NCBI GenBank assembly: GCA_030141605.1 | Contig: JAQGDQ010000165.1 | Coordinates: 1-64,000 of the forward strand | Source: Tubiluchus corallicola | Taxonomy: Eukaryota; Animalia; Priapulida | Reading direction: 5' to 3' | Length of the DNA stretch: 64,000 nt | Shown here: in pieces, positions 1-60,504 of the stretch | Numbering within the stretch: position 1 is the first letter of the stretch | Layout: the number at the start of each line of letters is the position of its first letter | Made by a program: the position numbers and the translations under genes | The notes under the pieces: model-generated | Told to the model about the DNA's origin: nothing | Seen by the model: only the letters and a program-made list of their open reading frames with translations | Database searches by the model: none

Positions 1-500
1 CAACAATGACGAGAGCAGCATTAATGACAACAATGACAAGAGCAGCATTAATGACATCAATGACGAGAGCAGCATTAATGAAGACAATGACAAGAGCAGC
101 ATTAATGAGAACAATGACGAGAGCAGCATAAATGCGAACAATGACGAGAGCAGCATTAATGATAGCAATGACGAGTACAGCATTAATGAAGACAATGACA
201 AGAGCAGCATTAATGATAGCAATGACGAGTACAGCATTAATGAGGACAATGACAAGAGCAGCATTAATGAGGTCAATGACGAGGGCAGCATTAATGAGAA
301 CAATGACGAGAGCAGCATTAATGAGGACAATGACGAGAGCAGCATTAATGAGAACAATGACGAGAGCAGCATTAATGAGAACAATGACGAGAGCAGCATT
401 AATGAGAACAATGACGAGAGCAGCATTAATGATAGCAAGGACGAGAGCAGCATTAATGAGAACAATGACGAGAGCAGCATTAATGATAGCAAGGACGAGT
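1..500. repeat. 27-bp minisatellite (GCAGCATTAATGAGAACAATGACGAGA)n, running off the window start
   Basis: About 18 tandem, slightly variable copies are directly visible. They explain the RAALMRTMT-repeat ORF 132..509. Confidence 0.95.
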
Positions 501-11597: not shown

Positions 11598-11698
11598 TAT
11601 AAATTGCGACCGAACGACCAGTAACGACGAACGTTACTGAAGACACAGATATCTGAAGTTTGACAGAGGAAGGCGTAGAAACTTCATACAGCCAACAG
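11598..11698 (+). promoter_or_regulatory. Candidate core promoter and non-coding exon 1 of Spaetzle-like gene A
   Basis: TATAAA at 11598 and a strong donor CAG|GTAAGC at 11698/11699. Shares CGAACGAC..GT and ATC.GAAGTT with the equivalent region of gene B. Confidence 0.5.
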
Positions 11699-11779
11699 GT
11701 AAGCTAGCTAGGTACACATTAACATTGACTGCAAGTTATTCTAAGTACACATATCAGTTGACGCAGAAAGAAGTTTAGA

Positions 11780-12260: not shown

Positions 12261-13334
12261 TGAATAATATTAGAAGGAAGGGCTCTACAAAACTGAAACC
12301 TACATCAGTTTTAGGCTGTGATAGCTACAAGTTTGTGGCATTAGCGGTTTTTAAGTTTTGGCTACAAATTTTTTGCATATTAAAAAAATAAATGGCTGAA
12401 CAATGTCAGCTAATTGTCAGCTGAAAAACAACGGCATTGATGTATAAATCACTCAAAATATGGCAGCAAAACGATAAAGAAATCAATCAGTTTGTGACGT
12501 ATTAGGTAAAAATGACACAGCTAAAAATACATATCATAATTATTTTAATTGCTTTCTTATTAGTGAAGTTATCTGTATCAAAGCAATACATGTACCATTT
12601 TCTCCTACTTTTTGATTTGTGCCGTTTTTTCTTGTGCCAGTTTTTCCAACTTTTCCATTTGTGCCATTTTTCCTATGTCATTTTTACTTACTTTTCCATT
12701 TGTGCCATTTTTCCTGTGCCATTTTTGCCTGTGCAGTTTTTACCTACATTTGTTTATGTCATGATCTTCACCATAGCATAGATAATTAGGCATTGAAAAA
12801 GATTTGTTACCAAGAAGAAGAGGGACTCAATCTTCTGGATTACAGTATCTGCAATTCTTTTAAAGAGAAAGAGTACAACGGCCACGCAGAGCTGTTTGAT
12901 GCAAATGAACTAAAGAGAAGAGCTGTTGATAGGGTGGGATCAAAATTAATACCCCTTAAAGAATTGAAAAACTGTGTCAGCTATTGATGAAAACGCCTTA
13001 GCCAAATTTGCAATGAAAAGGATAAACGCATAGAGCATTTGCTTTTAATTGTAACAATAGTGATTAGGGACAAAAAATTTTCAGCATTTTCATTTCCGAC
13101 ATATTCACTTAAAACTTCTGTATTTTTGGATAAATTTATGGGAATGACTTAAGATTTTTTATGTCTATACTTAATGTCTGTAATATCAATGTGGCAATTT
13201 TCAAGCAATTCTATTGTTTTGATCTTATAATATCGTGATGAAAACTTCGGTACATTTTTTCTATACCACCCGGTGCATTTTTGCTAAAACCACAAATAAT
13301 TCTTTTTGCCATTAAACTTTATAGAATCTGAACA

Positions 13335-15002
13335 ATGAAATCGTCTGTGACTGCAATGTTGCTGGCTATGCTGGTCTGTACACTGTTTTCGCTAACCAGC
13401 GGTCAAGCTGTGGGTTTCAGAAGTGCTTCAAGAAGCAGCTCTGTGGGTAATAGAGTCTGCTGTGTGCGGTTGAGCGATCTACTTGGAAACAACGGACAAC
13501 TGAAATCCCCCGACAAGATCATCAGTCCGTCAAAAACATGCATCGAACTGCAACCCTCACAAAAGTAAGTTCTTGCTAGATTACGCAAACGCGCAATGCG
13601 GTCCAAAAATTGTTCAGGTGCGACTTCGGTGTAGAATCAAAAATGACAGGGTGAGGCATAAGGGCGATCCTGCATGGGTGCCTTGTTATAGATTAATCCG
13701 CAAAAAGTAGTCTCATTAAAACAGCTAGCTAGTAGGCGGAGAATAATTACAAAAAGTGACGTCACAGTGGGTCATGGGTCACCACATTGTGGAATAACAC
13801 TGTCTGTAGATTAAATACTCTATATCACTAGAGTAAAATTATATTCTTCGAAGCATACTTGTTTGTTCTAGACGAAAATTAAAACCTAAAAAATATAAAA
13901 GTATTGAAACTATCTCTTAGAAATTACCTTTTTGCTACAACTGTGAGGTTGTGAGGCCGACGAAGCCATCCCGCGACTTCAAACTGGTACAGAAAGAGGT
14001 ACATCATTACGTATAGCCCCTCAAGTTGGTACAAAAAAAGATGTACGACATTGGGTAGAGCCCTCAAGTTCGTACAGAAAAAGAGGTACGTCTTTGCGTA
14101 GAGGCCCTCACCTTGGTACAGAAAGAGAGGTACGTATTTGCGTATGACCCCTCAAGTTGGCACAGAAAGAGAGGTACGCCACTGCGTGAAGCCCTCAAGT
14201 TGTTACAGAAAGACAGGAACGTCTTTGCGTAGAGCCCTCAAGTTGGTACAGAAAGAGAGGTACATCTTTGCGTATAGCTCCTCAAATTGATACAGAAAGA
14301 GAGATGCGTCTTTGCGTAGAGCATTTGTAGGTCGGTAAAACTCTTCTGCTGTTATTTTAGTCACTCATTTTACATGATTTGCTTGTTAATTAACAAACCC
14401 AGTCCAATCTTAAACTGTAGGTCAAAACAATTTACTTTTTAAAATATTGAAAGGAAACATACTATTTTTTCAAATACGACTTACGTGAAAGAATTATTAC
14501 TCCACAAACATAATTTTGCATTCACGCCACTAGTTCTTCGCTGTCACATGCATTTCACCATTCGCTAGTTAGACGAGCACTAGGGCCTGCATTTTGGAAA
14601 CGCATTGCACATTTAGCCATTTTAGCCGTAATTTCCAACCAAGCTTTGAAAAGCAGCTCTGAATAAGATGCATAAAATTATCATTACGATCTCTATCTAT
14701 TAATTTTGCAGAGCAGCGATTGATTCATACGGAAATCGTCAACCGGCGAGTAGAGGAATAAATGACAATCGAGCTGCTCTAGTGCTGCCAGGCTGCCCGG
14801 CATGGAACTTCTTGTATAATATAAATCAGCCGATTTGTGCACTTTCTTGCAACGGTCACAACGTTGTCATTTTCCCTGGACAAAATCTCTTCGTAAGAAA
14901 ATGTCAGACGTAAGTTCATATACCAATGATTGTATTTGTGAAATGTGAAATGCTTATACATTGCCAAAGCATCATTCTCTCCCTCCCTCTTTCTTCCCTC
15001 TT

Positions 15003-15057
<55 letters not shown>

Positions 15058-15506
15058 GTCTCTCTCTCTCTCTCCCCTCTCGCTCTCTCTTGCTCTCTCT
15101 CTCTCTGTCTCTTTTTTCATTCATGCATTTTCTCTCTCTCGCTCCCTGTTCTCCCTCTCCATGTCCTTCTACTGCAGTTTGCAGCATAATTGTTGTCTAA
15201 TTAGCAACAACGACGACGACGACAACAACAACGAAGACGACAGCAGCAGCAACGGTGATGACGATGACGACATTAACAGCAACTACACCAACAACAATAA
15301 TAAAAATTATCCCTTATTGTTATAAAATCATTGTAAAGAAATTATACTATTTCAGTCCTGGTGCAAACTGTGTTTATACGAAGCATTGCCACGGTCAGTG
15401 CACTCAGTTCGTCGGAGAAATACTTCTGAATGGTTTCGATCTCTCCACAAATCAATTTGGTCAATATGGATTCAAATATCCCAGATTCTGCTACTGCAAA
15501 ATCTGA
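13335..15506 (+). CDS. Secreted Spaetzle/neurotrophin-like cystine-knot precursor A, 192 aa; join(13335..13564,14712..14909,15356..15506)
   Basis: Canonical GTAAGT donors and (T)nCAG acceptors, both coding introns phase 2, frame open throughout. Signal peptide MKSSVTAMLLAMLVCTLFSLTSG. C-terminal ...GCPAW...PIC...RKCQTPGANC...GQCTQ...FKYPRFCYCKI* has C-x35-C-x6-C-x9-C-x29-CxC spacing. Exon structure is identical to paralog B. Confidence 0.88.
13978..14322. repeat. Intronic minisatellite, 8 copies of about 43 bp (TCAAGTTGGTACAGAAAGAGAGGTACGTCTTTGCGTAGAGCCC)
   Basis: Head-to-tail diverged copies with no unique spacers. Confidence 0.9.
14975..15300. repeat. (CT)n microsatellite plus CAA/GAC tract in intron 3 of gene A
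   Basis: Directly visible. Confidence 0.9.
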
Positions 15507-15765
15507 ACTTCTCAGCTGTTACCTAGCAACAATATCAAAAAGGAAAAACGGTTTATTCTTTATCACAATATTGAAGAAACAATGTCATCTTGAGATTTTA
15601 GATTAAAAAACACTAACGTTATGCAAAACATACTAACTTAAGGAGACACGTGTATTTTCGTTGTTTTGGAATAGGGTAAACGATAATGGCAGTCTAATAA
15701 TGACAGTGTAATAACATATAAAAGTTAGTAGTAACAACACTATAGTATATAACATGGTATAGATA

Positions 15766-15771
15766 AATAAA
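15766..15771 (+). terminator. Candidate polyadenylation signal of gene A
   Basis: AATAAA 260 nt after the stop codon, followed by a T/GT-rich tract. Confidence 0.45.
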
Positions 15772-16559
15772 GTTGATTAAAATTGCTCTCTGTAGCTTTT
15801 GTTTTTATTGTAAAAGACGGTGATTTCTCTAACGATTATCAATGCGAATTTAAATGCAATATAAACTCTGCATTTTCACTTAGCATTTGTTATTATAATC
15901 ACCACATTGTATAAACAGAACATTGTATAAAACTAACTTTAAATTTGTTTAATAAACTTACTTCATTTGCTGTGCGCAATTCATTTACTTTGATATAAAA
16001 TGTCGAGTTTGTGTTTTTTCACGTGAATATCATATTACAGAAGTGTATTTGTTTAATTTTACCATGGACACGGTGGTTAGTCAACCACTCGGCTCATGAG
16101 CACTTCACTAAAAACTGACTGGCCAACAGACTGACCACCAACAATCAACCAATAAATCAATTAACAGCAAACAAAACCTACCAGCTAATCAACCAACCGA
16201 CTAACGAATCAACCAACCAACCAAATAAACCAACCACCTAGCAATCCTGCAGCCAGCTAAGCTACCCACCACCAATCAACTATCCAACCCACAATCAAAC
16301 AATCAGCCAGCCTCAGCCGACTAACCAGTATACCAACCGATTGCAATAACAATAGTGAACATGTAATCTTCGTTACGTATTTGACCCACCATGAAGGCCA
16401 CACGATTCAAGCAGTGGACCAAACCATTCCCCAAGGGGGGGGGGAGCCCGAAGTCGATGTGTGCTTTTCACAAAGCTTATTGTTTTTAATGTAATCAAAA
16501 TTGCAAGAGTAAGTTTAATTTGTAATTGCAGTAATTTTGTTCTTAAAGGGGAACAGTTT

Positions 16560-17560
16560 CAGTTAACGCAATTAGTCGGACTTGGGTTTGTAACATTTTT
16601 AACTGTACTGCTGCAGAAGTTACAAACCCAATTCTCACTAATTGCGTTAACTGAAACTTGATTAAATGAAGATACAGAATAAGTGTTTAATATACTCGCA
16701 AATGCTCTGGTAAACAGAACTGGAAAAACATAATTAGTAATAATAGTATCAAGAAACTCAGCCGTGACTTGATGGGAAGAGTGATTTAATAAGTTCAAAT
16801 TGTAGTCCCCTAACAAAAATAACTGCTTATTTTGTTTATTTATTATTGATAGTCTAGTAGTCAACTGTTCAGTAGGTAAATGTCTGTGGATTTTGCCCGG
16901 CTGGTCTGTAGATCACGCCGACTACTATGTTTTTGCCTTTAACTATATGAATATCAATAAAATTAAAGTACTTTCAAGGTCAGAATTGCTTGATGTTAAA
17001 GCGTTTCTCACTACATCACCGGTGTGTCTCATTTAATGAACAGCCCTACACGCCCGCGTTTTTATTGCATCAGCATAGAGCTGATAATTTCTTACTAGAT
17101 GTCATCGATCACTTACCAATATTATTAATTATTGATTTAAACATAGCAATATGTCAAACTAATAATATCGAAAAAGTAAAATACAATAACCATGTAAAAA
17201 ATAAATTAATAAGTGATACAGAATCAATTAACTGGGAGCAATTATGTAGTGTTTCAGATCCTGAAAAAGCTTACAATCTATTTTTAGACAAATTTAATGA
17301 AGCGTACTTTAAAAATATAAAAGCTACTGATGCTTCCAAGAAAAAGAAAACTAATATCATTAGCCAGTACATTCAGGCGCAAAAATGAAATGTACAATTC
17401 ATTAAACAAAAAAAACCTCAGACGCATCTGAAACTGACTATAAACAATACCGCAATAAACTAAATAACATTATTAAAAGTGCTAAATCCACTTATTATCA
17501 AAATAAGTTAAATAATGTTAAAGCAAACATGGGGAATTATGAAGCAAATAATGCATTCTA
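16560..17560. mobile_element. Decayed LINE APE-endonuclease region with an internal inversion
   Basis: + strand IALTET*L (about 16640) and DHLPI (about 17105) flank a - strand block with VGVIYRP and GDYNLNLL. Confidence 0.7.
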
Positions 17561-17579
17561 GGAATTCATGTTAACTGCA

Positions 17580-18201
17580 TTAAAGGAAGACAGGGTGATT
17601 TTTCGTATACTGCCCCATTTTCAAATCCGGTAACAAGTATAGATTTTAACACAATTAATACAGCAAAAGCGCTTCTGATAATTAGATAATAGACTAAAAA
17701 CTTAATTAACGGCGGGCGAGCCCAACTATTGATGACGTCACAAACTAACATCATTTTCGACAACAAAAATATTCCACGCGTGTCGCACGTGTTTGCAAAA
17801 GCGAAAATTGAAGACAGCGCTACTGTAAGATATTCAGTGTGTTGTACTAAAACTAAGCAAGTTTTTTAAGTTAAAAATTCAAATTTTAAATTTACCGCTG
17901 TGCTCACGCATGAGCTATCGAACGTGTGCAGTTCGTCACAAACTAACACATCTGAACTCAGAGGTACAGCACCTGTTTTCGGGAAATGCGTTCCTGAAAT
18001 GCAGGCGCTAGTGCCCGTCTAACTGACGAATGGCGAAATGCAACTAACAGCTAAGAACTAGAAGCGCTAACGCAAAATTGTTTTTGTTTTAACAATTCTT
18101 TCACAAAGTTATTTTGAAAAAATAGTAAAATTTCCTTTCAATATTTTAAAGAGTAGATTGTTTTGAGCTACAGTTTAAGACTGGGTCCAGTTTTGCTTTA
18201 A
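17580..18201 (+). mobile_element. TTAA-flanked (Kolobok-like) MITE, family 1
   Basis: TTAAAGGAAGAC...GTTTTGCTTTAA. Homologous copies or fragments at about 38030-38603, 61395-61802 (inverted), 10370-10580, 14395-14610 and 62116-62520. Confidence 0.75.
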
Positions 18202-18524
18202 ATCAATCCAAATCAAGGATTCCCACTAAACGTTCAGAACACGTTTGTTTCGATTATTTTACAATTCACTCTGTTTTGTATTTATTAGCCAAGTTCATTT
18301 TAATGTGGCATCCGATAATTTATGATTTTTTTCAAATTATTTTATGGCATGAAAGCTGTTTATGCTTACTGTTTTATATGCATTCATCATACATGTACAC
18401 ACGACTGGTGAGATTAAGTTCAATTTCTAATTTTAGTAATTCTATTCCTAATGTAAAAGCATTAAGAATACATTACAATAGCTAACAGTACTTTTAATCG
18501 TGTGCCTATTAAACTTATATATAT

Positions 18525-18748
18525 AGTTTGTAATGTAAATGCTTGTAGCAGGACCGGAAATCAGCTAACTATCAAGAATAGGTTCCTGTAAAATCAGGCA
18601 ATGAACTGACAAAATTAATGTCTCTTATCTACATTTTGATTGATTAAAACTGCGCAAAGGTAGTTTTGCTAACATTCACCCTAACATTTGAAAGGGGAGG
18701 AAAGGGAATTTTAAAGTACGTCCCTGTAAACTTTCCATGCGAAGTTTG
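18525..18748 (+). repeat. About 225-bp segment duplicated at 23387-23609
   Basis: AGTTTGTAATGTAAATGCTTGTAGCAGGACCGG...CATGCGAAGTT is nearly identical in both places. Confidence 0.9.
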
Positions 18749-18864
18749 AATAGTTTGAACAGAGTGAACAGAAGATGACGTATCTACTTTCTGAAGGAAT
18801 TTTATGTAGGTTTTGCCTGTTACTCAATCAGCGTTTGATTAATTGTCCATTGTTTTTATATTTA

Positions 18865-19420
18865 TAGTTATATATTTATTAATGCCAAAAATACACACAA
18901 TACAAGAAAAACAAGACATACATACAATTTCAATTTTGAAATATAATAGCACTATATTTCAAGCAAAACAATTACTGATAAAACAAATATTATCAAATCT
19001 TCCTGTTAGTTATTTTAGTTATCTTAAATGAAAAGTCTAATGATCAGTGTTTAAAATAAATTGTCATTCATCTGGCCTCATTTTCAATTATATGATAATT
19101 ACATAGTATTGATCATAGTATTTTCATCGTGTCTTAAAAACGCTTTTTCAGCATGATTAATAAATGCCTTAATTATTTCTAAATTATTATTTCCCATCAA
19201 GATTAAAGATTTCCCAGCAGCGCCCATAAGGAAAAATTCTAGTTTAGTTACATTGATGTGATTATATAATTTTCTAAGATCATTGTTATACGGACATTTT
19301 ATAACAAAGTGTAATTCATCTTCGATTTCATTTCGATTCTCAGCTGGGATTTTTCTAGGTTTAACGTACCTCTCTCTTTCAATATACAAAGTATGAGAGC
19401 TGATTCTCAGTAATTTTCAG
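18865..19420 (-). mobile_element. LINE ORF2 3'-end fragment
   Basis: ORF 19099..19389 contains EIEDELHFVIKCPY, a LINE C-terminal Cys/His motif. Same family as 11780-12260. Confidence 0.75.
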
Positions 19421-20157
19421 TAAATTTGTAAATTTTGTTATATAAGTTTTTGTTATTTTGTCATATAATCTGAGATATATCAATGTACTTATGATTGCAA
19501 TGTTTCTCATCAAATAAAAATATTGTTTAAACTAATATGAAAATACACTATTAATCAAAAGAGAACTTTTATGCAATCACATTATTTTTTTATCATTACT
19601 TTTCTAAACCGAAGCTTATAGAGATAAAACAGCCATTTTGTGCTTTAATCATGAATATTTATGGCGTGCATTTATGGGTGCAAATTTTAGCTTTAATAGC
19701 TTCAAAACAGCTTGTAACAAATCCATATATGGCAAGTGCTTTTAAAGTTCCAAAAACAGACTGTTCTTATTGGATAACGAAGCGAATCTCTCATAGTGTT
19801 AAAATCGGATTTTGCGTATTTAAGTTTTGTACTTGAAAAGTCTTTTTAGAATATCTTTTTAAGTTATAGTCGATGAGATATGTAAGTGTCTTTTGTTTTA
19901 TTCGTGTATCAATTGTCAGAAGACGTGCCTAATTTGCCCCGGGGAAGACGATGTTGACAACTTTCCTAAGCCAGTTTTAGGGAGATTGTCAACAGGCAGA
20001 GACATTCCCTATTGTTTCAACCAACCATTACAATAGCTTGTTTACCTCGTCTGGAGGTGCCCTTGCCGGACCTGCCCAGATGTTCCTACCCTCTACGTGA
20101 TCGTCTGCACGTCAATTCTGCTAATCACGTGTTTAATTTCTTTTGTTCTACCATGCA

Positions 20158-20314
20158 TATATAAACAACTGTGAGAGCATTTTTCCAAAGTTTTCAACAT
20201 ATCGTATGTCTATAAGCGAACGACGAGTTATAAAATCAGAAGTTGAAGAGTAAATCTTGTTACGATTTGACACTTTTAAAGAGTTTGTTGTGTTTGCTGC
20301 CATTGTGAAGTTCG
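20158..20314 (+). promoter_or_regulatory. Candidate core promoter and non-coding exon 1 of Spaetzle-like gene B
   Basis: TATATAAA at 20158 and donor TCG|GTAAGT at 20314/20315. The acceptor before the ATG exon (ATTAAACTTTACAG|AAT) matches that of gene A (ATTAAACTTTATAG|AAT). Confidence 0.55.
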
Positions 20315-21481
20315 GTAAGTTACAAGTTACTCTGTAAATTTTTCACTTAGAATTTTGTTAAAAAGCTGAATTTTCGTTGAATTTTAGTTTTATTAATTTA
20401 ATTTACTTTAACAATTTATGTATATATACGTTTTGCTTCAATTTCCAATTTGTAATGTGGAGGGACCTCAAGACAAGTTTCAGGAAACAGCGCACTTATT
20501 GTTTGGTATCAAGTGTCATACAATCCCATTATAACTCGACATAACCATTGAAAACAAAGCGTAATTTTGTGATTTACATGTGACAAAATAATACGTTATG
20601 TTCATCACTGTTGATAATATAAATCGTAGGTCTAAACGAATGGCAGTAGTTATCGCATATTCCAACAGAATGTTAAATAGAAATATTAATAACATAATCT
20701 AATATTTTAGACTTTACGTAATCGGTTACGAATACAAAGATATATGCTAAGCTGCTGCTTCTATGGATGTTCAATTAATGATTTATCAAAGAATTATTTA
20801 CTGAATTTCAAAAGCACTGAGACGAATCATAAGCTAGCCCAGAAATTCTCATTCCAGCGTGACATTATGTATTGCTGATACATATCCTCTATATTACTTT
20901 TCCATAAGCGAATTTTAAAACTCTATTCACACATAAATTTATCTGTTAATCGAGTTCTTTGCTCACTGGCTGTGTTAAATAACAATACTAGTATAAGAAC
21001 GTATATGTATATTCTATGCAGAAACCGTATTAGAGCACTCTTGGACCACTATACTTATGGTTATAGACTTGTTGACATAATAGCGTGCATTCTGTTCTTG
21101 ACTTTGCATGATGAATATGTAATTGAAATGATATTAATGAAATGTTGTATTCGCTACTGACAACATAAAGTTTATACCAATGTACATAAAACTACTTACC
21201 CTATTGTATTACATCTAATGTAGCATTATGTGTGAATAAAGATGATTATATTAACTTGTGTATATATATGCTGTGTGCTGTGGTCATATTTATCTAGTTT
21301 TTTATTGCTGTTGTAGATTCGACTTCTAGAAAACTTTTTGCAAGAACGATTTAACTTACTGCAGAAAGACCGTTTCCTGCAGGACTAACTACTACGAAGT
21401 TACTCTAAATTACATGAGACACCCGCATCAAGAGTAATAGTTTTAATAATTTTTTCTATTAAACTTTACAGAATTTACATA

Positions 21482-24397
21482 ATGAAGTGGTCACTGACAG
21501 CCCTGTTGCTGGTCATATTGGTCAGCCTGGCGGTCACGTTGGTTGATTGCTCAGTGGGTAGTAGAGTTTGCTGCGTGCCCATAGAGGATTTGATTAGCGC
21601 AGACGGGCAACTGACAACGCCCGATAGGATCCCAAACTGCTGCGGATCATATGATTGTAGGAGCTTGGATCGTTCACAAACGTAAGTTAATAAGAACTGA
21701 ACAAAATTACTAATTCCCGTTCACATGAGGCGATCACCGATCAGTGTAAACTCGGTTTCATCTTAGACCAGAATCAATTCTATTTATACAAATTAAATGA
21801 AGCAAAACAGTTATTATTATTAGTAGTAATCTTTTATTCGAGTGAAATTTTTATACAGCAATATAGTGTTAGTACATATTAATACAACAAAAAACAATTT
21901 TTGCTATTAACTAAAAAACAAGAAATGATGAAATCCATTTGCATATCGCCATCATGCTTCATGTAGTTGCTTACACATTCATAAACTGTTTTTCTTGCGT
22001 CTCACATAAAATTTAAGCAAAGAGTACAACCATACTTTATTCTTAAATCAACATCTGAGTCATTCATAAAATATAACATTTTTGGCATAACAAGCGAGTC
22101 GGTATTGTGAATCTTCTTAAAAATCCCAATTTACGATTATCAAAAAATTTGCTGGCATGGTACGACAATAATACATAAGTAGTTTTACATTTCGTTTTGT
22201 TTAGTGGAATGTTTTTTATACGCACAGTTCCAATTTATTCTAATTACATTCGCATCTATAGTGGAAATGCCATCAATTTCACACCTGTACAACAAAATAG
22301 CAAGACAGTAAAAACTAATTAGTGCTTTGCTACTATTGGTTTGAGTTCGGCCCCATTGCCTACAATATATTATTTAAACAACCGAAATATTTACGCTTCA
22401 GTCTCGTAATGTCAACTGCAAAGTCTTTGTCAGTTTTAATATCACATCCTAAATAATTTACACCATTTTTCCACTTCAATGCCATGCTGCAAAACAAAAT
22501 GCTCCCATGTCCTGGCGAGCTTCTTCCGAACTATATCAACATCGTCTTCTTCGGATTAAAAGTCATACCCCAATATTTACAATATATTTCGCATAATTAT
22601 CTTTAGCCTTTCTCTAAGAAGCCTACAAATGTTTCTCTAAAATAATATCCATACCCTGCTTTACGTAATTGTTTTATAAGATCGTCAATGTATATACAAT
22701 AGAGAACTGGAGACAGTACTCCACCATGTCTTACTCCGGATTTAATACAAAATTCATCGCTCTTTACAGTCTCCTATTTCACATATGCATATAATTTGTT
22801 GCTACGTTATTAGACGTATGTTAATATGTTCTAAGCACAATGAAATGTGTCTATAGATTATGGGTTGCCACATAACGTAATTCAAAGTACATCAGGTTCT
22901 ATTAGCTCCACAATAATTTTAATAGATGGTAACACTGGTCCTGTAAACAATACTGTTAGACCCAGTATAGCGACATCTATCTTCCGAGAAAAGAGGCATT
23001 ATAAGCTGTTTCAAATTTAAAATCGGTGTTTTTTCTGAGACCAGCTGTAATGGCAAATTTCGAAATGTCCAATGTTACTGTTACGTCTGAATGGGGTTTT
23101 CCAAAAAATCTTTAATATCACGTATTCACCGATTAATTTTGCAGATCGACGATTGATACATTCATACAACAGCGCGGAGAGGAAGAGGCAGAAGCAACTG
23201 ATGAGGATGGAGAAAGAGGATGGCCAAGTTGTCGCTCGTTCAAGCGGCTGTTTCGAATTCGTTTTCCAATTTGTTTGCCATCTTCAAATGGGCAATACGT
23301 CATCGTATTCCCGAGACAATGGCTTTACCTAAGAATATGCAGAAAGTAAGTTTATTTAAAATTGTATACTCCCACGTATTGTTGTACAGTTTGTAATGTA
23401 AATGCTTGTAGCAGGACCGGAAATCGGCTAACTATCAAGAAGAGGTTCTTGTAAAGTCAGGCAATGAACTGACAAAATTAATGTCTCTTATCTACATTTT
23501 GATTGATTAAAACTGCGCAAAGGTAGTTTTGCTAACAGTCACCCTAACATTTGAAGGGGGAGAAAAGGGAATTTTAAAGTACGTCCCTGAAAACTTTCCA
23601 TGCGAAGTTATATTAAGTAGCATTAGGCTTAGCTATTTGAATGACTTTGCATAAATGGAAAAGAAAATTCTTAGTAATTTAAAATGTTTGTGCCACATTT
23701 TGAAATGTCACTGACTCACCTTTCCAGTGTGTACCACAGGCTCGCCAAAAAACGTATTTTAATATTTTTAGTATATACAGTATACAGTAATTTATTCTTT
23801 TCTTTAAATTATTTATTGTTAGCGAAGAGTGTTCTATGAATACTGTGAGTATTTTTGTCAAACTTTACACAATGTTATCTAAACTTGTTTCAAACGAGAT
23901 ACCGTCACAATGACTGCTCCTAACGGTCACCGCGGGAATTTAAATTTCACGTTTTATACAGCGTTGCTGCTAATGCAAGCCCTGTGCGCAATAAGAACAG
24001 TGTGTAAGTGGTGCAAAATTTCAAGATGATTTTTTAGCTTTATAAGTAAAGGGTTTTCTTGTGATTTAAGTTTGTAAGAAATTATAGACCTAGCAATTTA
24101 AATGTTCCTCTTGCCCAATTATAAATTGTCTGTAAGTCTTAAATTTCATAAAGCTCAATTTTTTCCTCCTTAAATTTAGCAATAAAGAAATAAACTTCAG
24201 TTTAAATTATAATGGTTGTTACTACAGTTATTCTATTGTACCATTCCAGCTTGGGTGCAAAGTGTTTTTCTGCTGGGCAACATGGTTTCTGTGAACAACT
24301 ATTTAGACAGAAACGGTTATATGGTTACAACTTGACAACAAAAAAAGTTGGTTACTATAAGTTCAAATATCCCTCGTATTGCCATTGCCAGATCTAG
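21482..24397 (+). CDS. Secreted Spaetzle/neurotrophin-like cystine-knot precursor B, 182 aa; join(21482..21681,23145..23345,24250..24397)
   Basis: GTAAGT donors, CAG acceptors, phase 2/2, open frame. Signal peptide MKWSLTALLLVILVSLAVTLVDC. Knot domain PSCRSFKRL...PIC...RICRNLGAKC...GFCEQ...FKYPSYCHCQI* (C-x35-C-x6-C-x8-C-x29-CxC). Confidence 0.88.
21900..22800 (-). mobile_element. Decayed LINE reverse-transcriptase fragment in intron 2 of gene B
   Basis: Minus strand gives SGVRHGGVLSPVLYCIYIDDLI (RT GVxQGxxLSP motif) and VNYLG. The frame is disrupted. Confidence 0.8.
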
Positions 24398-24475
24398 ATT
24401 TCTATATACCAGCCAACCAACCACAGTTAGAAGACTGATTGATTAACGTCTTATCTGTTTCGTCGTAGATTTCAA

Positions 24476-25015
24476 TTAAAGGAAAACCGGACGATTAATC
24501 TCATTTTAATTTACTGTCCAAAATATACACTTTCTTGCCTATGAAATTTAACAATTGTTTCTAATAATTGAATAATTATCTTGGAAAGTTAGTTAACGGC
24601 AACGGAACAGCTAACGCTTACGTCACAAACTCACCACAGTTTGTGTTATGGTAGGCATCCTCCCCGCGTCAAGCACGTTTGCGTGAGCAAACGCTGTTAT
24701 AAGACGCTGATGTGATGTCACGAAAAAATGAGTTCTACCTCACACTGACGTCACAGGCGAACACTGCAGTTGACCATACTTATCACGGTACCACACCTGT
24801 TTGTTGTTCTCGCAAATGTAAGAAAACGGCGCCATTGCTAGTCTTAGTCGATGTGTGCTGACTACACGTAGCTTTGAAAGTTTAACAAATTTAGCTATCC
24901 GCTATAATTATTATTTAATCTGAGCTTTGATTTAAAAAGCTGTTGTAGTTTTCAATATTTTAGGGTACACTTTATTTTGAACTAATGTCTACACAATCGT
25001 CCGGTTTTCCTTTAA
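24476..25015. mobile_element. TTAA-flanked (Kolobok-like) MITE with perfect TIRs
   Basis: TTAA-AGGAAAACCGGACGATT ... AATCGTCCGGTTTTCCT-TTAA. Confidence 0.85.
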
Positions 25016-31815: not shown

Positions 31816-32751
31816 TTACCCTAAAGAGAAAGTTACGTTGGTGGGTGTTCTCCTTTCCTTCCTCCTCATTACCACAGGCGGGTTCTTTGGAACGGTTCTA
31901 GGAGGACAGTCATTAAATCCCGAATCTTTGGAATGGTCCATGTCATCAGCTGTATGGTGGAGGCGATCAAACTGAACGTCCAGGCAGTCTTGCGATGACG
32001 TCCTGTCACTGCTGATGTTACTGTCGCTGCACGAGGAGAGTGACAGCATTGAATCGCCACCTATTCCAAGGCTGCTGCCTTTACTGGTGTTGGGCAACAA
32101 CAACCCGTCTTTTTCCTGCGCGTAATTCTTGTCTTCTGTTGAGGCTTCTTGGGTTTTCTGTTTCTTGGCTCTCGTGCCGTTAATGTTGTCCTTGAATTGA
32201 GCGCTAGTAGCATAGACGTCGCACAACTGAGATCTGCAGAAAGGAGTAAAGAGATAGATGCATTCATTCAGATGAAATACGGAACTTTTATTCGACGCCT
32301 GCTCTCGATCATCATGCGCGCCGTCACCTTGAATGGAAATTTTTAACTTCGTTTCAATGCATTTCGTGCCAAATTTCTTGGAGACCGTCACAAATGATTT
32401 CAGCCAGTAGGAGACGCCACCTTCGTCGCCCGGAGCGGTAAAAGACAGGGCGATGTTTTTCGGTATCCGATACTGGAAAAAGAAAATGTGACCGCCAGGA
32501 GTCAGCAGGGTAGCCTTTAATTGTCTTTTGTCAATCACAAGGATGGAGTCCTGGAATTTGTAAAAAGTGCTGCTGTATCGTTTCCCGTTCTGCTGGGTTA
32601 CGGCAAACGTTCCCACCCCATTTACCGTCACCTCCAGACACTTTGAACTGACGGGTTTACCCAGAACGAGGCACACTCCCCCTTTTAAGAGTTCGCCTGG
32701 AGAAAAACTTGATTTTTCCAGTAATATTTTGAAGTCACTCAATGCCTTCAT
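31816..32751 (-). CDS. Intronless arrestin-N-domain protein 1 (alpha-arrestin/ARRDC-like), 311 aa from the first ATG
   Basis: Long uninterrupted ORF. Arrestin_N hallmarks: FKILLEKSSFSPGELLKGGV, LLTPGGHIFFFQYRIP, SF...GGVSYWLKS. The ATG at 32751 aligns with the paralog's start. Confidence 0.85.
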   Translation of the reverse strand: MKALSDFKILLEKSSFSPGELLKGGVCLVLGKPVSSKCLEVTVNGVGTFAVTQQNGKRYSSTFYKFQDSILVIDKRQLKATLLTPGGHIFFFQYRIPKNIALSFTAPGDEGGVSYWLKSFVTVSKKFGTKCIETKLKISIQGDGAHDDREQASNKSSVFHLNECIYLFTPFCRSQLCDVYATSAQFKDNINGTRAKKQKTQEASTEDKNYAQEKDGLLLPNTSKGSSLGIGGDSMLSLSSCSDSNISSDRTSSQDCLDVQFDRLHHTADDMDHSKDSGFNDCPPRTVPKNPPVVMRRKERRTPTNVTFSLG

Positions 32752-33020
32752 TACAAAGTCATTTTGATACAGAAACAAGTGCAATTCTCGTCTACGCTGT
32801 TCAAGTACCGCTTATTAAACGACTTTTTATCATCCAAGTTAAAATACGAAAAGTCGTGTGTAACATCATTGCTATGCAGTAATTTAAAATGTACGAAAAG
32901 TAGGGTGTAACATACAATACTGCATATAAACGCTCTCTCATGTTCATCTGTTCAATCCAGACTGATATTCAGAATTATATAACATTAATTGATGCTCAGC
33001 GCAGCCAGAATCGTGCAGGC

Positions 33021-38603: not shown

Positions 38604-41600
38604 TGAAAATGATGCCAAAAATTCCTTCGCGATGTTCCCCCTTCAGCATTTTGCTGCATATCAAAATAATTACGTATCAAATGTCAAAGGACGGAGACTG
38701 GATGATTTCAGGATATGACGTAATCTCAGTTAATGGACAGGCGGTATAGTTTAGTTTTCAGATTTTCGTTTGCTGGGTTTTTACCATCATCAGGCAACGG
38801 TGTTTTTTTACGTAAACTCAGTTCATCAAGCCTCAATACCTTTCACTTTCACAAATGTCAATATGGTCTGTTTTGCATTTCGTGAAGTTTTTTTGCGTTA
38901 GAAGATGTCCTACGTGCATTTTTGTGGTTTGGTGATATTTATGCAAAACTTCAGTTACTTGTCTATAAATCAGTGTTATTATCAGTTACTCATGTTTTTA
39001 ATCTATTTCATTCACAATATTTTGGTGATTTGCGTTGCATTTTATCGTCTTGAAATTAATTACGTTCAAATTATATTTTTTATTTTTTTTTGCATTTTTT
39101 GGGGGGATGCGTTTTAGGGGGTGCAGATTAGATAAAATCGATATATCTGATTTTCATTGCACCCATTTATGCTGTCTGCGTATACTTTGTTCTTTTTTTG
39201 CAGCTATTTCTGTTGATTTTTTCCCCACAGGTGGAAAACGCATCCGGATGCTACATAAACGCCACTTTGTCCAGTAAAGTAAAATATCTGTTCACATCAT
39301 GTTATTACGAAAAAAGATCATATCAATGGAAATTCCCACGTTTTTGTTGTTCGTCTTTCATTAGCATTTTCTCTGAAAGTCAGACTGGTTCTCATTCACA
39401 GGGAATTTCCTACAAAAGGATTTTCCCGTAAGATTTCATATTTTGTTGACTTATGGTGTGGCTCTAGTGTGAGGATATTGACCCGTTTCCACCTGGGCTA
39501 ATTCTAATTCCCGATTCAAAAATGTTTTTTTATTCACCTCGGTTAAATAAACTCAAATGTAGGCAAGTGGTGTAGCAGGTGTTGCTGTAGCGCGGCTGCT
39601 GCTGCTGCTGCCGCCGCCGCTGCAGCTACTACTGCCTCTGCTATTCCCGATTCGTAGTCGCATTTACCAATTACCTTTGCTAGGTCGTAGATTTTTTTTT
39701 AGTTTTTCGGTTATTTTGTCTGTAAGGTATGCATTGTCACTAATAGATCGCGGTTGCATTGTTGTGTGATTGCATCAGCTAGTAGTTTAGTGTTGTGAAG
39801 CAGGACCGCATAGCTGCGATATTATGAAAGCTTTTGTTTAATTTGTTAGTGTGTAATAACAGCTGCTGTTTATTTCAAAGCATTAAATTGTGATCTTAAT
39901 GAGTCTTACATGACCGACATTAGAGATATTATAATCGTCGTTTATTGATGCTTTGATGTCTTCGCTTAAGGTTTAATTTCATATGTAATTAAGACTCATA
40001 TTCACTTATGAGGCAAGGGCACTGTTAGTGGGAGTTGCAGTGACTATTTTATTATTTGCGGATCCTATAGGAGAATCCAACGCTGATTTTTTTGCGTTTA
40101 ATTTGTTATGATAGGCATCGATTACAGAGTAGATACCTGGAGTAGATTTCTTGGAGGTGGTGAACGGCCAAAGGGTCAAAAACTGGACATCGGTCAGTTT
40201 TTCGATTGCCATTCAACTCTTCTTAGGGTTTTGAGTTAAATTCGATTTTTTGAGGTATTGCATGGTGGATGTGTAGTGCGTGGGCTTTAAAAAGCTGGGA
40301 TTCTTTAAGGGCCCGATATAGGAGCCAGACGGTATAACAATGAATAACCTTAAAACTATTGTAAATGAAGTCACGAATCTTTCAGGGAAGAAGAAGCTGG
40401 GGGCAGGGGCGTCAGATCATTGTAAAAATGGGATTATTTAAGTTCCAGAGACACGAACTAAAATGCGAAAATTAGGGCGTTCACTTTTAATTCATGTTAA
40501 CTTGCAACGCAGAGGGTTAGACACCCCAGGAGAACACCTAGGGTAGGACCTTGAAAGCATTGTGGTAAATGGTGACCTCACTTGGTATCGGTCAGCTTTT
40601 CGATTGCGGTTCAAATCCTCCTGTTTGTGCTCGAACTGGAATTTTGTTTAAGGTTCGAAGTGAAACCGAGTCAGGAGCCCAAATGTAAAAATTAAGGCAA
40701 ACCGTGAAAATTAAGGCAAACCGCACTGGACCAGGTACAGTCAAGTGATAATAACGAGCATTGTGCACACTGGTTACCCACACTTGAACGTAATTATCTA
40801 CAAGTACTGACATGAGCTAAGCACACCCGACCAGGTACAGCCAGGTGTAAACATGGTCACGGCGTTACGCTCGCGGATTTGGATCTAAATTCGTTCAGTT
40901 TTGTTTTTCTTACTAATTTTTCTATGGTAAATAAACGAACAGTTATTAAAGAAAGTTTGGGACAGAATGTATACAGGTTAAACTAGATTAGACTGGAATT
41001 GATTAGATTGATTATGATTAATTGTTTGATAAAGTATATCTCTTGCTGAGTCAATCTTAATATCAATACGTGTGAAAACAATACTCAATTCTACTCAGTT
41101 TCATTTTATGGACGACTCCAGGATTGGCTACAAACGTAGCAGTGTTTCATAGGTTGTGCTATTTTAATAAACACTTAACTTTGTTTATTTTGGGTACCCG
41201 CACCCAACACTGTACGTGCGAATCACGCACAGGTCAACACAAATTAAAATTGTTTTCAAAATGGCGTAACTACTTCACTAATTCCAGTTTGCACGCCAAT
41301 AGGTTGTTTCGATTACAACACTTAACGAAGACGCAATTGACCTATGATGGAGTGCTACACTTTTCCGTGCTCAACGTTTCACCTTGGAAAGGCAATTTGT
41401 TCAAGATAAAAAATGCGAGTCGAGTACAAATATTTAGTTTTTAAATTAGGCGGATTTGTGAGAAAAAATACAGTGACTGCTGTGCAGTTGTCTGTCCAGG
41501 GAAATAAACGTTTATGGAATAATCATAATTATACGTTTGCTAAATATTATTTGCAATTTTTCACGTGAGGTTTAAAAGATCGCGTTATTTTTTGAAAAAT

Positions 41601-43200: not shown

Positions 43201-46200
43201 CAGATAAATAAAAATTAACTAAAACAAATTTCATTATTTAGCTATCATTAGCAGGCGTTAAATATCACTACCTATCAGCTTACATGATAAAGCATCTCAG
43301 CTTCACTAAGGGTTTCAAATTTCCCCAACCCCAGCACAGCATCGTACGAACTAGAGCTGAGACTGAAATCTGAGCCTGTTAACTTATTCAGTTGCCGGGC
43401 AACCACGTATCAGTCTCTCATTTGTACGGTATCACAGACTCTCTTGACCGTCGAAAATCTAATACATGCGTAATATCACGTATCGTAAATACGCCTGGTC
43501 ATGTAGAATAATTGAGCGTGCATTGTGTGCATGCACGCACTCACACACATAGTACACAGCCGAATGATTTGTTAATTAAGAACTACCGGCGCAATTGTAG
43601 CTTACGAATCAAATCTTTACACTGTCATTATCGGCACCGGTTTGTTGCAAACATAAAAATTCACTAATAACTAATACAAATTCCTCCAGCTAGGATGTTG
43701 AATAAGATAAAATTGGACTCGTATTCATCATTCGCACACTCGTTTAAAAATAGTTTGGTTTTTATTAATTATTGACATTGCCTACCCTAATAAGCCTTTT
43801 CACAATTCTAGCGATTAATGATGATCATGAAAAGTTCAAAGGTTAAGTGAACCAGACAACACATTTATGTACACTTGACAACGCCTCGCAGCCCTTGCTG
43901 TTGTAATAGTAACAGTTTTAACAGGCTGCTAGAACCTTACCTAGTTCATTTTTTCTTGTTCCCAAGTAAGATCCTGCTAGTAAATCACTCTATGCACAGA
44001 CTAATGCATAGTTAAGTCCACATAAAGCAACTGAAGTTACTGAACTGATGCGGCAGACGGCTTTGCTTTCCCACATGTCACGTGACGGTTGTAGTTAAAA
44101 CGCGTTGCTGTGATGCACTTAACCTTTGACCTATAGCAACCGCACAACGCATTTGGAGTGAAGACTTATTAAATCACTTCTCGAGTAAGCTGGTCTGGTC
44201 TGCAACGCAATTTCAATGCACTTCAGTTTAACCATTCTAACTGAATCTAAATTAGATAAAACATAGCTTAAGTATCGCTAACACACCTTTATCTAACTTA
44301 AGCTTACCTAATTTGCACCATTCTAGTCTAATTTAATTGAAATGAAATTAGTTGTCTTGAATTTGAACAGAAACCAGTTCAATTAACATATTTCGAATCG
44401 ATTGCAGTCTTGGTTTATTTGTAGCCAATCGATTCAATTGCGACATACTTGTACGAAAAATAGTAGTTTAAACACTTAACTATTTTCAACTGTTGTGTAA
44501 ATGAAAATAACGTACAATTTTCCAAAGAAAAACACTTTCCAAATCACATTAAAATAAAAATCACGTTTATTTCCAAACTCTTTCAAATTTAATATTTCAA
44601 ATCAATTATTTACAAAGTGCAAATGAAGCTCATAGTTATATAGTCGTTAATATTCGTCATTATAAGTCATCAAGCATACTTTCTGCTGCACAGTAATCAC
44701 ATTCTAACTACACTGAGAACTCACAATCAATTACTGATTTCCTTTAAAAAATCATCCACATCAAACGTTGCTATTATAAACCGAAAAACATCACCGGTTA
44801 CAAAATACAGATTTATATCATACAAAATATTTCCCCAAATAAAGCAAAACTTCTCTGGTGAAGAAATGACGTTTTTATATAGGTCGTGCAGGTTACGATG
44901 TTCTCGCGATAAACGCTGTCACATAGTTACATATACTAAAATATCACTTACATTTTATCAAACCCCATATATTTTAACCAAACTGTTTACAGTGGTATTT
45001 AAAAATTCCCAAAGACAACTCATAAAAACAAACGCATATAAACAAAACTATTGCAAACTTTACATGTGTATTTTACGCGTTGGCAATAATAATGTCGACG
45101 GAAGTTTCGAGACACAGTTCCAAAGGACATATAAAAAATTAAAATTCAAAACTGGTTTAAGACTAAGGTCAATCAATATGCACAAATGTGTTCAAGAATT
45201 TCCTCTGATGCCAAGTCAAAACACCGGCGCTGAATAAAAATGAGAAAATACGGCTGATAATAATTGCTTCCGATACCGGGCGGCGCAAAAATCCGCACTC
45301 CAAGAACTTTTCAACACCTATTTACTTTGTGATTGACGAGTTTTAAATCCGCCTCTTGAAGAGAAATTTTTCGTGTGACCTTTGACATAGACGCATACAA
45401 AGCGACGGCATACTTCTGCTGCGGTTTTCCTGATTTAACGGCATCACCTCAAGGTTATGAATTAATTTCTGTTAAAACGAGCGAGAACTGGTCAAAATGA
45501 AACAGCCGTTAACTACACAGGTGAAGAAATAACCAAGCTGCAGCACGCAGTGATTACGCCCTTTTCTCAGTATGCTGTATAGAAGTTTCAAAGTTTCTAC
45601 AGCAGTTTCAAAGTTTCTAACTAACTCGTATAAATACAAGAATGTCTGTGGGTCAGATAATACAAAAAATAAAAAATTGTAAATTACGATGAACACTTTG
45701 TGCCATTTGCGATCGTTTGATTGTTTTCAACTTCTATGGATTGTGTGTAAATGTAGTCCAGGGATTTGAAACAGTTTGGACTTATATCTTACAGATTTTT
45801 ATGTAAGATATATAACTATGTTTGTAATCAATTATTTTTTCAACTTAACTGGTAGGTGGGAGAGATTTACAACAGCAGTGAATATTCAACGTAGCTACAA
45901 AAATATAATAAAGCAATATTATCACTAACAAGTAATTAGACGGTTTAAAACCGTACAGGTGTTAAAATTTGACCAGGTGTTGGAGTGAAATAAAAATTAA
46001 ACGAGAGCAACATGTCGAAGTGGAGGCAGTAATATAAGAGGTTAAATAGCAGAAAATATATTTTATTACAAGTCGGTCGTCTTTCAAATAATTTTAAGCG
46101 GATACATTAGAGTATATTAGAGTATAGGTAGTCAGGGCGTAACCGTGTAATATATGATTACTGACACGTTAGAATTTTTCATGCTAGAAGCAATGGACTG

Positions 46201-46340
46201 ACAGCATTAAGGACAGTAACTTACTGTGGGCGAAAAACGCATTCCGTAAATTCCAGATATATAGGGATTGAGTAATACTACACATGAATAGATCTAATAA
46301 CAAAAGTTTTCCCTAGGAAACTGATTTCAAACTTATCAAA

Positions 46341-46643
46341 AGCTATCGCCAGTAAGTACTACAAACAGTACTTATTGTAATCTGGAGCAAATTTAACATT
46401 AAGTCAATTGAAAACTTAAAGTTTTACGGTACATTAGGCATATATTTTTTGTTTTAAAATCTAAGTACAGCATGACGTTAAATAAAACAACTAAGAACTT
46501 TTTTAAGATTATAAAGATAGTATATAAATAAAGCTATCGCCAGTAAGTACTACAAACAGTACTTATTGTAATCTGGAGCAAATTTAACATTAAGTCAATT
46601 GAAAACTTAAAGTTTTACGGTACAGTAGGCATATATTTTTTGT
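46341..46643. repeat. About 110-bp direct duplication (46341-46452 and 46532-46643)
   Basis: AGCTATCGCCAGTAAGTACT...TAGGCATATATTTTTTGT occurs twice, nearly identical. Confidence 0.9.

Positions 46644-55348: not shown

Positions 55349-55384
<36 letters not shown>

Positions 55385-60473: not shown

Positions 60474-60504
<31 letters not shown>

What the first reader, a model, noticed from the sequence alone, without database searches (positions are those of the whole stretch)
13335..24397. Hidden tandem pair of spliced genes encoding Spaetzle/neurotrophin-type cystine-knot ligands
Seen: splicing at canonical sites gives two intact secreted precursors with identical exon phases. Their C-terminal domains share C-x35-C-x6-C-x8/9-C-x29-CxC spacing, a CxQ motif and FKYPxxCxC. 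Knowledge: this is the layout of Spaetzle C-106 (recalled as C-x36-C-x6-C-x13-C-x29-CCxC, with CRS..L, CKQ and FKIPSCCKC). B even begins CRSFKRL. Spaetzles are Toll ligands of the NGF/coagulogen fold and are best known in arthropods. Inference: if the host is a tunicate or other non-arthropod, as the repeat landscape hints, this is a poorly described Spaetzle-like signalling or immune ligand family.
Basis: partly seen in the sequence, partly recalled or inferred. Interest (0 to 1): 0.85.

Follow-up and report, generated by a model that had tools for sequence, protein, structure and literature searches.

The report
Orphan Spaetzle-like ligand gene pair
Two neighbouring, intact sister genes of an invertebrate that is likely not an arthropod are predicted to splice into small secreted proteins with the knot fold of the insect Toll ligand Spaetzle, and they likely act as protease-activated signals, which would supply candidate Toll-receptor ligands in animals where published surveys found none.

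Summary
Two three-exon paralogues (192 and 182 aa, 40% identical) splice GT-AG with identical phases, intact frames, signal-peptide-like starts and dN/dS 0.34-0.44. Exon 3 of gene B matches Pfam Spaetzle (E 1.5e-5, 25.9 bits; cut-off 27). Its exon-2 and exon-3 parts are predicted to fold together (score 0.65, best control 0.03), possibly by likeness to solved knots. They are very likely Spaetzle/neurotrophin/coagulogen-type cystine-knot precursors, but fit no named subfamily tested: no Spaetzle interchain cysteine, no neurotrophin motif, no furin site before the knot. They add a conserved cysteine-bearing N-terminal segment and a seventh knot-domain cysteine, which hints at a disulfide-tethered pro-segment. 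No homologue was found. Best reading: ligands released by a trypsin-like cut at a single arginine, probably for a Toll-type receptor (0.45). Main rival: coagulogen-like or cationic effectors (0.27). Splicing, expression, receptor and host are untested. Nothing supports a tunicate host; unreviewed scan notes on this genome suggest a priapulid-like worm, a group in which one published survey found no Spaetzle. The scan noted Spaetzle-like pairs before in mussel and oyster DNA.

The parts
13335..13564 (+). Gene A coding exon 1: signal-peptide-like stretch (predicted cut after G23) and conserved Cys-bearing pro-segment (C42, C43, C69)
   Evidence: hydropathy peak at residues 8-20; 21 of 41 residues identical to B in the mature part
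14712..14909 (+). Gene A coding exon 2: variable Cys-free linker, R97 (candidate cut site), knot Cys I (105), extra Cys 119 and 123, Gln 134, knot Cys II (141)
15356..15506 (+). Gene A coding exon 3: knot Cys III-VI (148, 158, 188, 190), extra Cys 154, stop
   Evidence: no Pfam family listed for this exon alone
21482..21681 (+). Gene B coding exon 1: signal-peptide-like stretch (predicted cut after C23) and pro-segment with C30, C31, C53, C54, C59
23145..23345 (+). Gene B coding exon 2: acidic linker, R91 (candidate cut site), knot Cys I (96), extra Cys 110, Gln 125, knot Cys II (132)
   Evidence: residues 91-133 co-fold with exon 3
24250..24397 (+). Gene B coding exon 3: knot Cys III-VI (139, 148, 178, 180), N-glycosylation sequon at 161, stop
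   Evidence: Pfam Spaetzle PF16077 positions 54-96, E 1.5e-5, 25.9 bits; Atlas top three clusters Spaetzle, 0.85/0.83/0.81, lead only
13305..13334 (+). Acceptor-like site 10 nt before the ATG of A (last intron base 13324), conserved in B: likely a 5' UTR intron
   Evidence: blastn 13297-13376 vs 21444-21523, 75% over 80 nt; sequences; inferred
21452..21481 (+). Acceptor-like site 10 nt before the ATG of B (last intron base 21471)
   Evidence: inferred
11598..11704 (+). Candidate TATA box and non-coding first exon of A (donor after 11698)
   Evidence: motif match only, weak
20158..20320 (+). Candidate TATA box and non-coding first exon of B (donor after 20314)
   Evidence: motif match only; GTAAGT occurs 30 times on this strand of the window, so weak

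Best explanation
Two intact tandem paralogues are predicted to encode secreted precursors whose C-terminal cystine knot is likely freed by a trypsin-like protease and likely signals through a Toll-type leucine-rich-repeat receptor, as insect Spaetzle does. Steps: (1) three coding exons with canonical, phase-matched splice sites and open frames (shown in sequence; splicing itself predicted); (2) secretion by an N-terminal signal peptide (predicted); (3) a Spaetzle-type knot of about 85 residues (predicted, about 0.9); (4) a cut at the single Arg just before knot Cys I, R97 in A and R91 in B, in or after a poorly conserved linker (inferred); in B the acidic pro-region (pI 4.1) would mask the basic knot (pI 10.0) until then; (5) because the Spaetzle interchain Cys is missing, any dimer would be non-covalent or use the extra Cys 119/110, or that Cys would tie the knot to the N-terminal segment (inferred from Cys counts); (6) binding to a Toll-type receptor in defence or development (inferred from family kinship only).
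For: Gene models and selection: linker 4 of 25 residues identical against 21 of 41 in the pro-segment and 37 of 90 in the knot. Pfam Spaetzle is the only family listed for B exon 3; the top three Atlas clusters are Spaetzle and the fourth NGF 57%/Spaetzle 24%, all under 0.9, a lead only. Co-folding of B residues 91-133 with 136-182: score 0.65, best of 3 controls 0.03; the mark was reached by 51 of 78 solved complexes and 2 of 108 mismatched microbial pairs, and by 39 of 65 solved and 2 of 126 unrelated eukaryote pairs; runs agree in at least 95% of contacts, partner pLDDT at least 87; all six knot Cys positions lie in the listed interface, with an antiparallel register between residues 118-122 and 158-162; the pass may come from likeness to solved knots. 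No RxxR or dibasic site lies before the knot in either protein, only a single Arg, which fits the trypsin-like processing described for Spz1 rather than the furin-type processing of Spz2/Spz5 (PMC9427763 passages). Priapulids are reported to have 3-4 Toll-like receptors (PMC8609888 passages); this bears only if the host notes are right.
Against: No call touches the receptor. Only 1 of 6 coding exons gave a Spaetzle match, below the curated cut-off, and none of A's three did. The Cys next to knot Cys V of Spz1/Spz2 is absent. The pro-region is short and holds 3 (A) or 5 (B) cysteines, unlike the natively unstructured Spaetzle pro-domain described in PMC9427763. The same fold serves clotting in coagulogen (PMC2586362, PMC7023112 passages). 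B has a furin-type motif (153-156) inside the knot, so other processing is possible. PMC7056985 (section 10) did not detect the upstream recognition proteins of Spaetzle cleavage (PGRP-SA/SD, GNBP1/3) in its non-arthropod ecdysozoan samples.
Confidence: 0.45

Rival explanations
1. They are coagulogen-like or cationic effectors, not receptor ligands: a protease cut would remove or displace the linker, the N-terminal Cys segment would stay tied to the knot by a disulfide, and the exposed basic, aromatic knot would polymerise, trap microbes or build an extracellular matrix.
For: After the signal peptide both proteins have 12 Cys split unevenly (A 3+9, B 5+7), and four non-knot Cys are conserved (A42/43/69/119, B30/31/59/110), so full intrachain pairing needs a pro-to-knot bond (inference). 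Mass about 18.4-18.5 kDa; B knot has 16 K/R, 1 D/E and 18 aromatic residues behind an acidic pro-region. Coagulogen has a Spz-like knot, is activated by a serine protease and does not need to dimerise. Its Cys-bearing N-terminal chain tied to the knot is recalled, not from a call. Unreviewed notes describe a coagulogen-like oyster pair and a mussel pair with acidic pro-region and cationic knot.
Against: No significant match to coagulogen: Pfam lists no Coagulin family for any exon (filters drop weak matches) and PDB sequence searches list none. A lacks the charge contrast (pro pI 9.9, knot pI 8.6). By my recollection the excised peptide and extra cysteines of coagulogen lie at other places.
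Confidence: 0.27
2. They are divergent neurotrophin-like factors acting on the host's Trk, p75 or another receptor kinase in the nervous system.
For: Six knot Cys and a conserved Gln seven residues before Cys II; no Spz interchain Cys, as in neurotrophins (recalled); the fourth Atlas cluster is 57% NGF (0.79, lead only); an unreviewed note reports a Trk gene in this genome.
Against: The neurotrophin consensus motif quoted in PMC2772990 section 10 is absent from both; Pfam NGF is not listed; no furin-type site before the knot; Cys II-III spacing is 6.
Confidence: 0.15
3. The exons are real paralogous coding sequence but are spliced otherwise, or the genes are recently silenced.
For: The model rests on sequence alone; dN/dS between old paralogues does not prove present activity.
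Against: Six intact exons in two genes, consensus donors at 4 of 4 introns, matching phases, conserved acceptor before both start codons; the two knot halves co-fold.
Confidence: 0.05

Closest known systems
Arthropod Spaetzle family (Pfam PF16077; Drosophila Spz1-6, Daphnia Spz7/8, Aedes Spz1C)
   Same: Signal peptide, pro-region, C-terminal six-Cys knot ending in CxC; Pfam match of B exon 3; single Arg before the knot as for trypsin-like activation; an intron inside the knot (Spz, Spz2, Spz3, Spz5 have one per PMC8296651 section 11; whether at the same position was not tested).
   Different: No Cys next to knot Cys V; an extra conserved Cys 14 residues after Cys I; short pro-region with conserved Cys; no Spz2 C-terminal tail; the Spz3/7/8-type Cys between III and IV in A only; Pfam score below cut-off on the half domain tested.
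Horseshoe-crab coagulogen (PDB 1aoc)
   Same: Same knot superfamily (PMC2586362 passages); 175 residues against 169 and 159 here after the signal peptide; serine-protease activation. Cys-rich N-terminal part and similar late Cys spacing are recalled.
   Different: No significant sequence or fold match in any call (1aoc only at Foldseek rank 38, E 3.8, rmsd 15.8, on a wrongly folded fragment); 12 Cys here, 16 recalled for coagulogen; no evidence of gelation.
Neurotrophins (Pfam NGF PF00243; Platynereis, Capitella, Lottia, Daphnia NT)
   Same: Pre-pro layout, six knot Cys, conserved Gln before Cys II.
   Different: Consensus motif absent, no furin-type site, shorter Cys II-III loop, no Pfam NGF listing.
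Trunk/PTTH/IL-17 T1A cystine knots (PMC11087794 passages)
   Same: Six-Cys knot in secreted invertebrate ligands.
   Different: No Pfam or Atlas listing points to them; all listed leads point to the Spaetzle/NGF branch.

Membership tests
Cystine-knot growth-factor superfamily, Spz/NT branch | Six Cys in knot order ending in CxC | tested here: met
   A 105/141/148/158/188/190, B 96/132/139/148/178/180
Cystine-knot growth-factor superfamily, Spz/NT branch | Conserved glutamine of the knot (PMC2586362 passage) | tested here: met
   Gln seven residues before Cys II is invariant (A134, B125). That this is the paper's glutamine is my inference from its position and recall.
Cystine-knot growth-factor superfamily, Spz/NT branch | Signal peptide and pro-region before the knot | tested here: met
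   One hydrophobic stretch at the N-terminus only (mean hydropathy 2.5 and 3.1); no dedicated signal-peptide predictor was available
Cystine-knot growth-factor superfamily, Spz/NT branch | [quoted passage not shown] | tested here: inconclusive
   The halves of B co-fold with an antiparallel register, but bonds are not listed and no whole-domain model went to a fold search; exon 3 alone gave no meaningful match
Spaetzle (PF16077) | Pfam score at or above 27 bits | tested here: inconclusive
   25.9 bits from profile positions 54-96 of 96 with B exon 3 alone; nothing for the other five exons; whole domain not scanned
Spz1/Spz2 | Extra Cys next to knot Cys V (interchain bond) | tested here: not met
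   Phe in A, Tyr in B; feature from PMC2772990 section 7 and PMC9427763 passages
Spz1/Spz2 | No further Cys within the knot domain | tested here: not met
   A119, A123, A154; B110; feature
Spz2 | C-terminal extension with its conserved motif | tested here: not met
   Both end two residues after Cys VI; motif absent
Spz3/Spz7/Spz8 | Extra Cys between Cys III and IV | tested here: inconclusive
   Present in A (154), absent in B
Spaetzle (PF16077) | Cleavage at the pro-domain/knot junction and binding to Toll | not testable with these tools
   A single Arg lies there in both; no host receptor sequence was available
Neurotrophin | Consensus motif between Cys III and IV | tested here: not met
   Motif from PMC2772990 section 10 absent in both
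Neurotrophin | Furin-type pro-peptide site before the knot | tested here: not met
   No RxxR or dibasic pair before Cys I
Coagulogen | Sequence or fold match to coagulogen | tested here: inconclusive
   Not listed by Pfam or PDB sequence searches of single exons; whole proteins not compared
Coagulogen | N-terminal Cys chain disulfide-tied to the knot (recalled) and gelation after cleavage | not testable with these tools
   Cys counts are compatible; bonds and gelation need experiment
IL-17/Trunk/PTTH | Match to their profiles | tested here: inconclusive
   Not listed for single exons; HMMER filters drop weak matches

The most novel reading that the evidence does not exclude
These are endogenous, protease-activated Toll ligands of a priapulid-like worm, a Spaetzle branch outside panarthropods that keeps a disulfide-tethered pro-segment and so bridges Spaetzle and coagulogen; ligand-gated Toll activation would then be at least as old as the ecdysozoan ancestor.
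Probability: 0.22. Interest if true: 0.8.

Novelty: new variant of a known kind. Interest (0 to 1): 0.52.

Why it matters
Whether Toll-like receptors outside arthropods have endogenous cystine-knot ligands is open. A survey across Ecdysozoa found Spaetzle only in panarthropods and none in Priapulus caudatus, with a caveat about search stringency (PMC7056985 section 10); none was found in the nemertean Lineus ruber (PMC9835746 passages) or in three lophotrochozoan genomes, again with a caveat (PMC2772990 section 12). These two genes are divergent enough to be missed by such searches: no relative appeared in any protein search here. If the host is a priapulid-like worm, which has few Toll receptors, two candidate ligands make the question directly testable. 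If they are effectors instead, they would be the kind of protease-triggered knot protein known from horseshoe crabs.

Tried and rejected
RNA: no RNA holder was listed for gene A; one run (X1, guessed RNA, contigs) came by species label. Laid on 13000-25000 it gave depth in 8 of 30 bins; none of the 3 joints matches the four introns, and none of the 8 pieces shown (of 33) lies on a coding exon; on 44500-64000 it gave depth in 9 of 30 bins. This is no evidence on expression. Homologues: B exon 3 found no candidate among longer proteins; the exon-2 alignment had 187 candidates, 0 at E<=10; the exon-3 profile against 1.84 billion representatives gave 2 hits, both repetitive microbial-type proteins without the Cys pattern, rejected; 0 of 595 metagenome and 0 of 93 viral pattern matches were confirmed; Atlas gave no usable hit for the exon-2 part. 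All used single exons of 43-66 aa, so sensitivity was low. PDB sequence searches of exons and exon alignments listed no cystine-knot protein. B exon 3 folded alone (pLDDT 66, pTM 0.42) gave no match at E<=0.001 in Foldseek and best Z 3.8 in the wide search: the fragment cannot form the knot, so this says nothing. The model of the exon-2 alignment was not finished when last asked. Further copies: the ORF 49481-49711 matched Pfam Spaetzle at E 0.015 (2 of 238 ORFs had that family, the other being B exon 3) and B at score 56 (0 of 2000 shuffles of the ORF), but 4 of 25 shuffled windows and 3 of 40 shuffled queries reach 56, the trimmed ORF lost the Pfam match, it lacks the final CxC, and there is no DNA similarity: unproven. 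Stretches at 41312-41401 (-) and 51060-51200 (+) hold stops and show no DNA similarity: unproven. Host: no genome held; the only relative of the neighbouring arrestin-domain ORF is unnamed (86% identity); a tunicate host is neither supported nor excluded by my calls. My notebook entry 2 recalled the place of coagulogen's extra cysteine; I no longer trust that detail and do not use it. Entry 3 gives R92 for B; the correct residue is R91. Papers: ten searches listed no paper describing these proteins or a priapulid Spaetzle; words printed with an accented letter cannot be searched, so such papers may be missed. PMC452504 and PMC11138774 (coagulogen structure) were not held; the supplements of PMC2772990, which hold its knot alignment and bear on Cys spacing and subfamily placement, could not be read; PMC12849515 had no occurrence of the terms.
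Full report
What is there. Joining 13335-13564, 14712-14909 and 15356-15506 gives an open frame of 192 aa (gene A); 21482-21681, 23145-23345 and 24250-24397 give 182 aa (gene B). All four coding donors are GTAAGT, all four acceptors end in CAG, and both introns are phase 2 in both genes. Each exon of A finds the matching exon of B by tblastn (E 6.5e-9, 2.0e-6, 5.1e-7). Over 179 aligned codons 72 residues are identical; second codon positions are the most conserved (0.65) and third the least (0.47); dN/dS is 0.34 by NG86 and 0.44 by LWL85. An acceptor-like site ten bases before the start codon is conserved in both genes, which suggests a non-coding first exon; candidates lie at 11598-11698 and 20158-20314 but are motif matches only. 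These are two old, intact tandem paralogues. Splicing and expression were not observed.

Anatomy. Both start with one hydrophobic stretch of about 23 residues and have no other. A conserved segment follows (21 of 41 residues identical) with a Cys-Cys pair and a further Cys; B has one more Cys-Cys pair. Then comes a Cys-free linker that is barely conserved (4 of 25), and a C-terminal domain (37 of 90) with six cysteines spaced 35, 6, 8-9, 29 and 1. A seventh cysteine 14 residues after the first is conserved (A119, B110); A has two more (123, 154). After the signal peptide each protein has 12 cysteines, split 3+9 in A and 5+7 in B between pro-region and knot domain. If all pair within the chain, one bond must join pro-region and knot; alternatively the odd cysteines join chains. 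This is inference from counts. No RxxR or dibasic site precedes the knot; a single Arg does (R97 in A, seven residues before Cys I; R91 in B, four before). B's pro-region has pI 4.1 and its knot domain pI 10.0; A shows no such contrast (9.9 and 8.6).

The fold. Library and fold tools saw single exons only, which halves the domain. Of six coding exons one matched a relevant family: exon 3 of B, Pfam Spaetzle, profile positions 54-96 of 96, E 1.5e-5, 25.9 bits against a cut-off of 27. In the Atlas the same exon's three best clusters are Spaetzle (0.85, 0.83, 0.81) and the fourth is NGF/Spaetzle (0.79); under 0.9 this is a lead only. B residues 91-133 and 136-182, folded as two chains, form one confident unit: score 0.65, best of three controls 0.03; the mark was reached by 51 of 78 solved complexes and 2 of 108 mismatched pairs of microbes, and by 39 of 65 solved and 2 of 126 unrelated eukaryote pairs; the three runs agree in at least 95% of contacts and the partner's pLDDT is at least 87. 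The listed interface holds all six knot cysteine positions and an antiparallel pairing of residues 118-122 with 158-162. The pass may come from likeness to solved knots, and the disulfides are not listed. Together I put a Spaetzle-branch cystine knot at about 0.9. Against: A's exons gave no match alone, no relative appeared in any protein or contig search, and exon 3 folded alone matched nothing meaningful.

Membership. They work like Spaetzle in layout but fail tests for the named groups. Spz1 and Spz2 have an extra cysteine next to knot Cys V and no others (PMC2772990, section 7 part 1); here that cysteine is absent and others are present. The Spz2 tail is absent; the cysteine between III and IV of Spz3/7/8 is in A only (passages). 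The neurotrophin motif (section 10) is absent. Coagulogen shares the knot and protease activation (PMC2586362 and PMC7023112 passages), and by recollection has a disulfide-tied N-terminal chain; but no search gave a significant match, its only appearance being Foldseek rank 38 at E 3.8 and rmsd 15.8. I file them as an unnamed branch of the Spaetzle/neurotrophin/coagulogen group.

How it likely works. The precursor would be secreted, cut by a trypsin-like protease at the arginine before the knot, as described for Spz1 (PMC9427763 passages), and the exposed knot would bind a Toll-type receptor, as a non-covalent dimer, a dimer through Cys 119/110, or with the N-terminal segment still attached. 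The steps up to the knot are predicted from sequence and models; cleavage, dimer state and receptor are inferred from kinship. I give this 0.45, a coagulogen-like or cationic effector role 0.27, a Trk/p75 ligand 0.15, and silent or otherwise spliced genes 0.05. An A/B heterodimer is possible but untested.

Host. No genome is held, the run list is coded, and the one relative of a neighbouring arrestin-domain ORF has no name, so I could not place the host. Nothing I ran supports a tunicate. Several unreviewed notes of this scan on other pieces of the same genome call it a priapulid or close relative; I take this as a lead. It matters because PMC7056985 (passages and section 10) detected Spaetzle only in panarthropods and not in Priapulus caudatus, while noting that its search was stringent; PMC8609888 (passages) lists 3 and 4 Toll-like receptors in two priapulids; PMC9835746 (passages) found no Spaetzle in a nemertean; and PMC2772990 (section 12) recovered none from three lophotrochozoans but called that premature. 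Other papers seen as passages: PMC4812194, PMC11087794, PMC6043800, PMC8296651 (passages and section 11). Unreviewed notes report Spaetzle-like or coagulogen-like pairs in mussel and oyster; a look-up with B exon 2 found no look-alike in other windows, so kinship with those is untested.

Surroundings. No third intact copy was shown. An ORF at 49481-49711 resembles the middle of the knot but fails window-wide controls. The window also holds two arrestin-domain ORFs and one exon of a secretin-family receptor; nothing links them to the pair.

Verdict. Real, intact, very divergent cystine-knot precursor genes; a new variant of a known kind. Interest 0.52: the fold class is familiar and host, expression and receptor are unproven, but the pair offers concrete candidates for an open question on the age of ligand-gated Toll signalling.

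Noticed in passing
window 49481-49711 (+): 77-aa ORF with C-x6-C-x12-CxQ and a weak Pfam Spaetzle match (E 0.015); lacks the final CxC and good splice sites; may be a decayed third copy or chance.
   Followed up: yes
window 41312-41401 (-) and 51060-51200 (+): Weak protein-level resemblance to A (score 66; 0 of 25 shuffled windows and 0 of 40 shuffled queries reach it; tblastn E 0.031) and to B (score 54, not above controls); both hold stops and show no DNA similarity.
   Followed up: partly
window 31819-32811 (-) and 47340-48323 (-): Two long single-ORF arrestin-N-domain genes, 43% identical over 308 aa, with Ser-rich tails; one unnamed relative at 86% identity.
   Followed up: partly
window 54944-55100 (+): Lone exon of a secretin-family GPCR (Pfam 7tm_2 positions 76-125; closest solved: CGRP and calcitonin receptors, E 5e-7). 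No other exon of it was listed among 238 ORFs and 87 exon candidates, so its introns may be long and may span other genes.
   Followed up: partly
window 22606-22773 (-): Reverse-transcriptase fragment (Pfam RVT_1, E 3.7e-5) inside the first coding intron of gene B.
   Followed up: no
window 18522-18746 and 23385-23609: 225-bp segment duplicated at 96% identity between the intergenic region and the start of B's second coding intron.
   Followed up: no
window 13979-14322: Tandem repeat of about 43 bp in A's first coding intron.
   Followed up: no
window 16555-16658 and 56662-56964: Imperfect palindromes (83% over 104 bp; 68% over 304 bp), likely non-autonomous transposon relics.
   Followed up: no
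window 1-500: 27-bp tandem repeat at the window's start.
   Followed up: no
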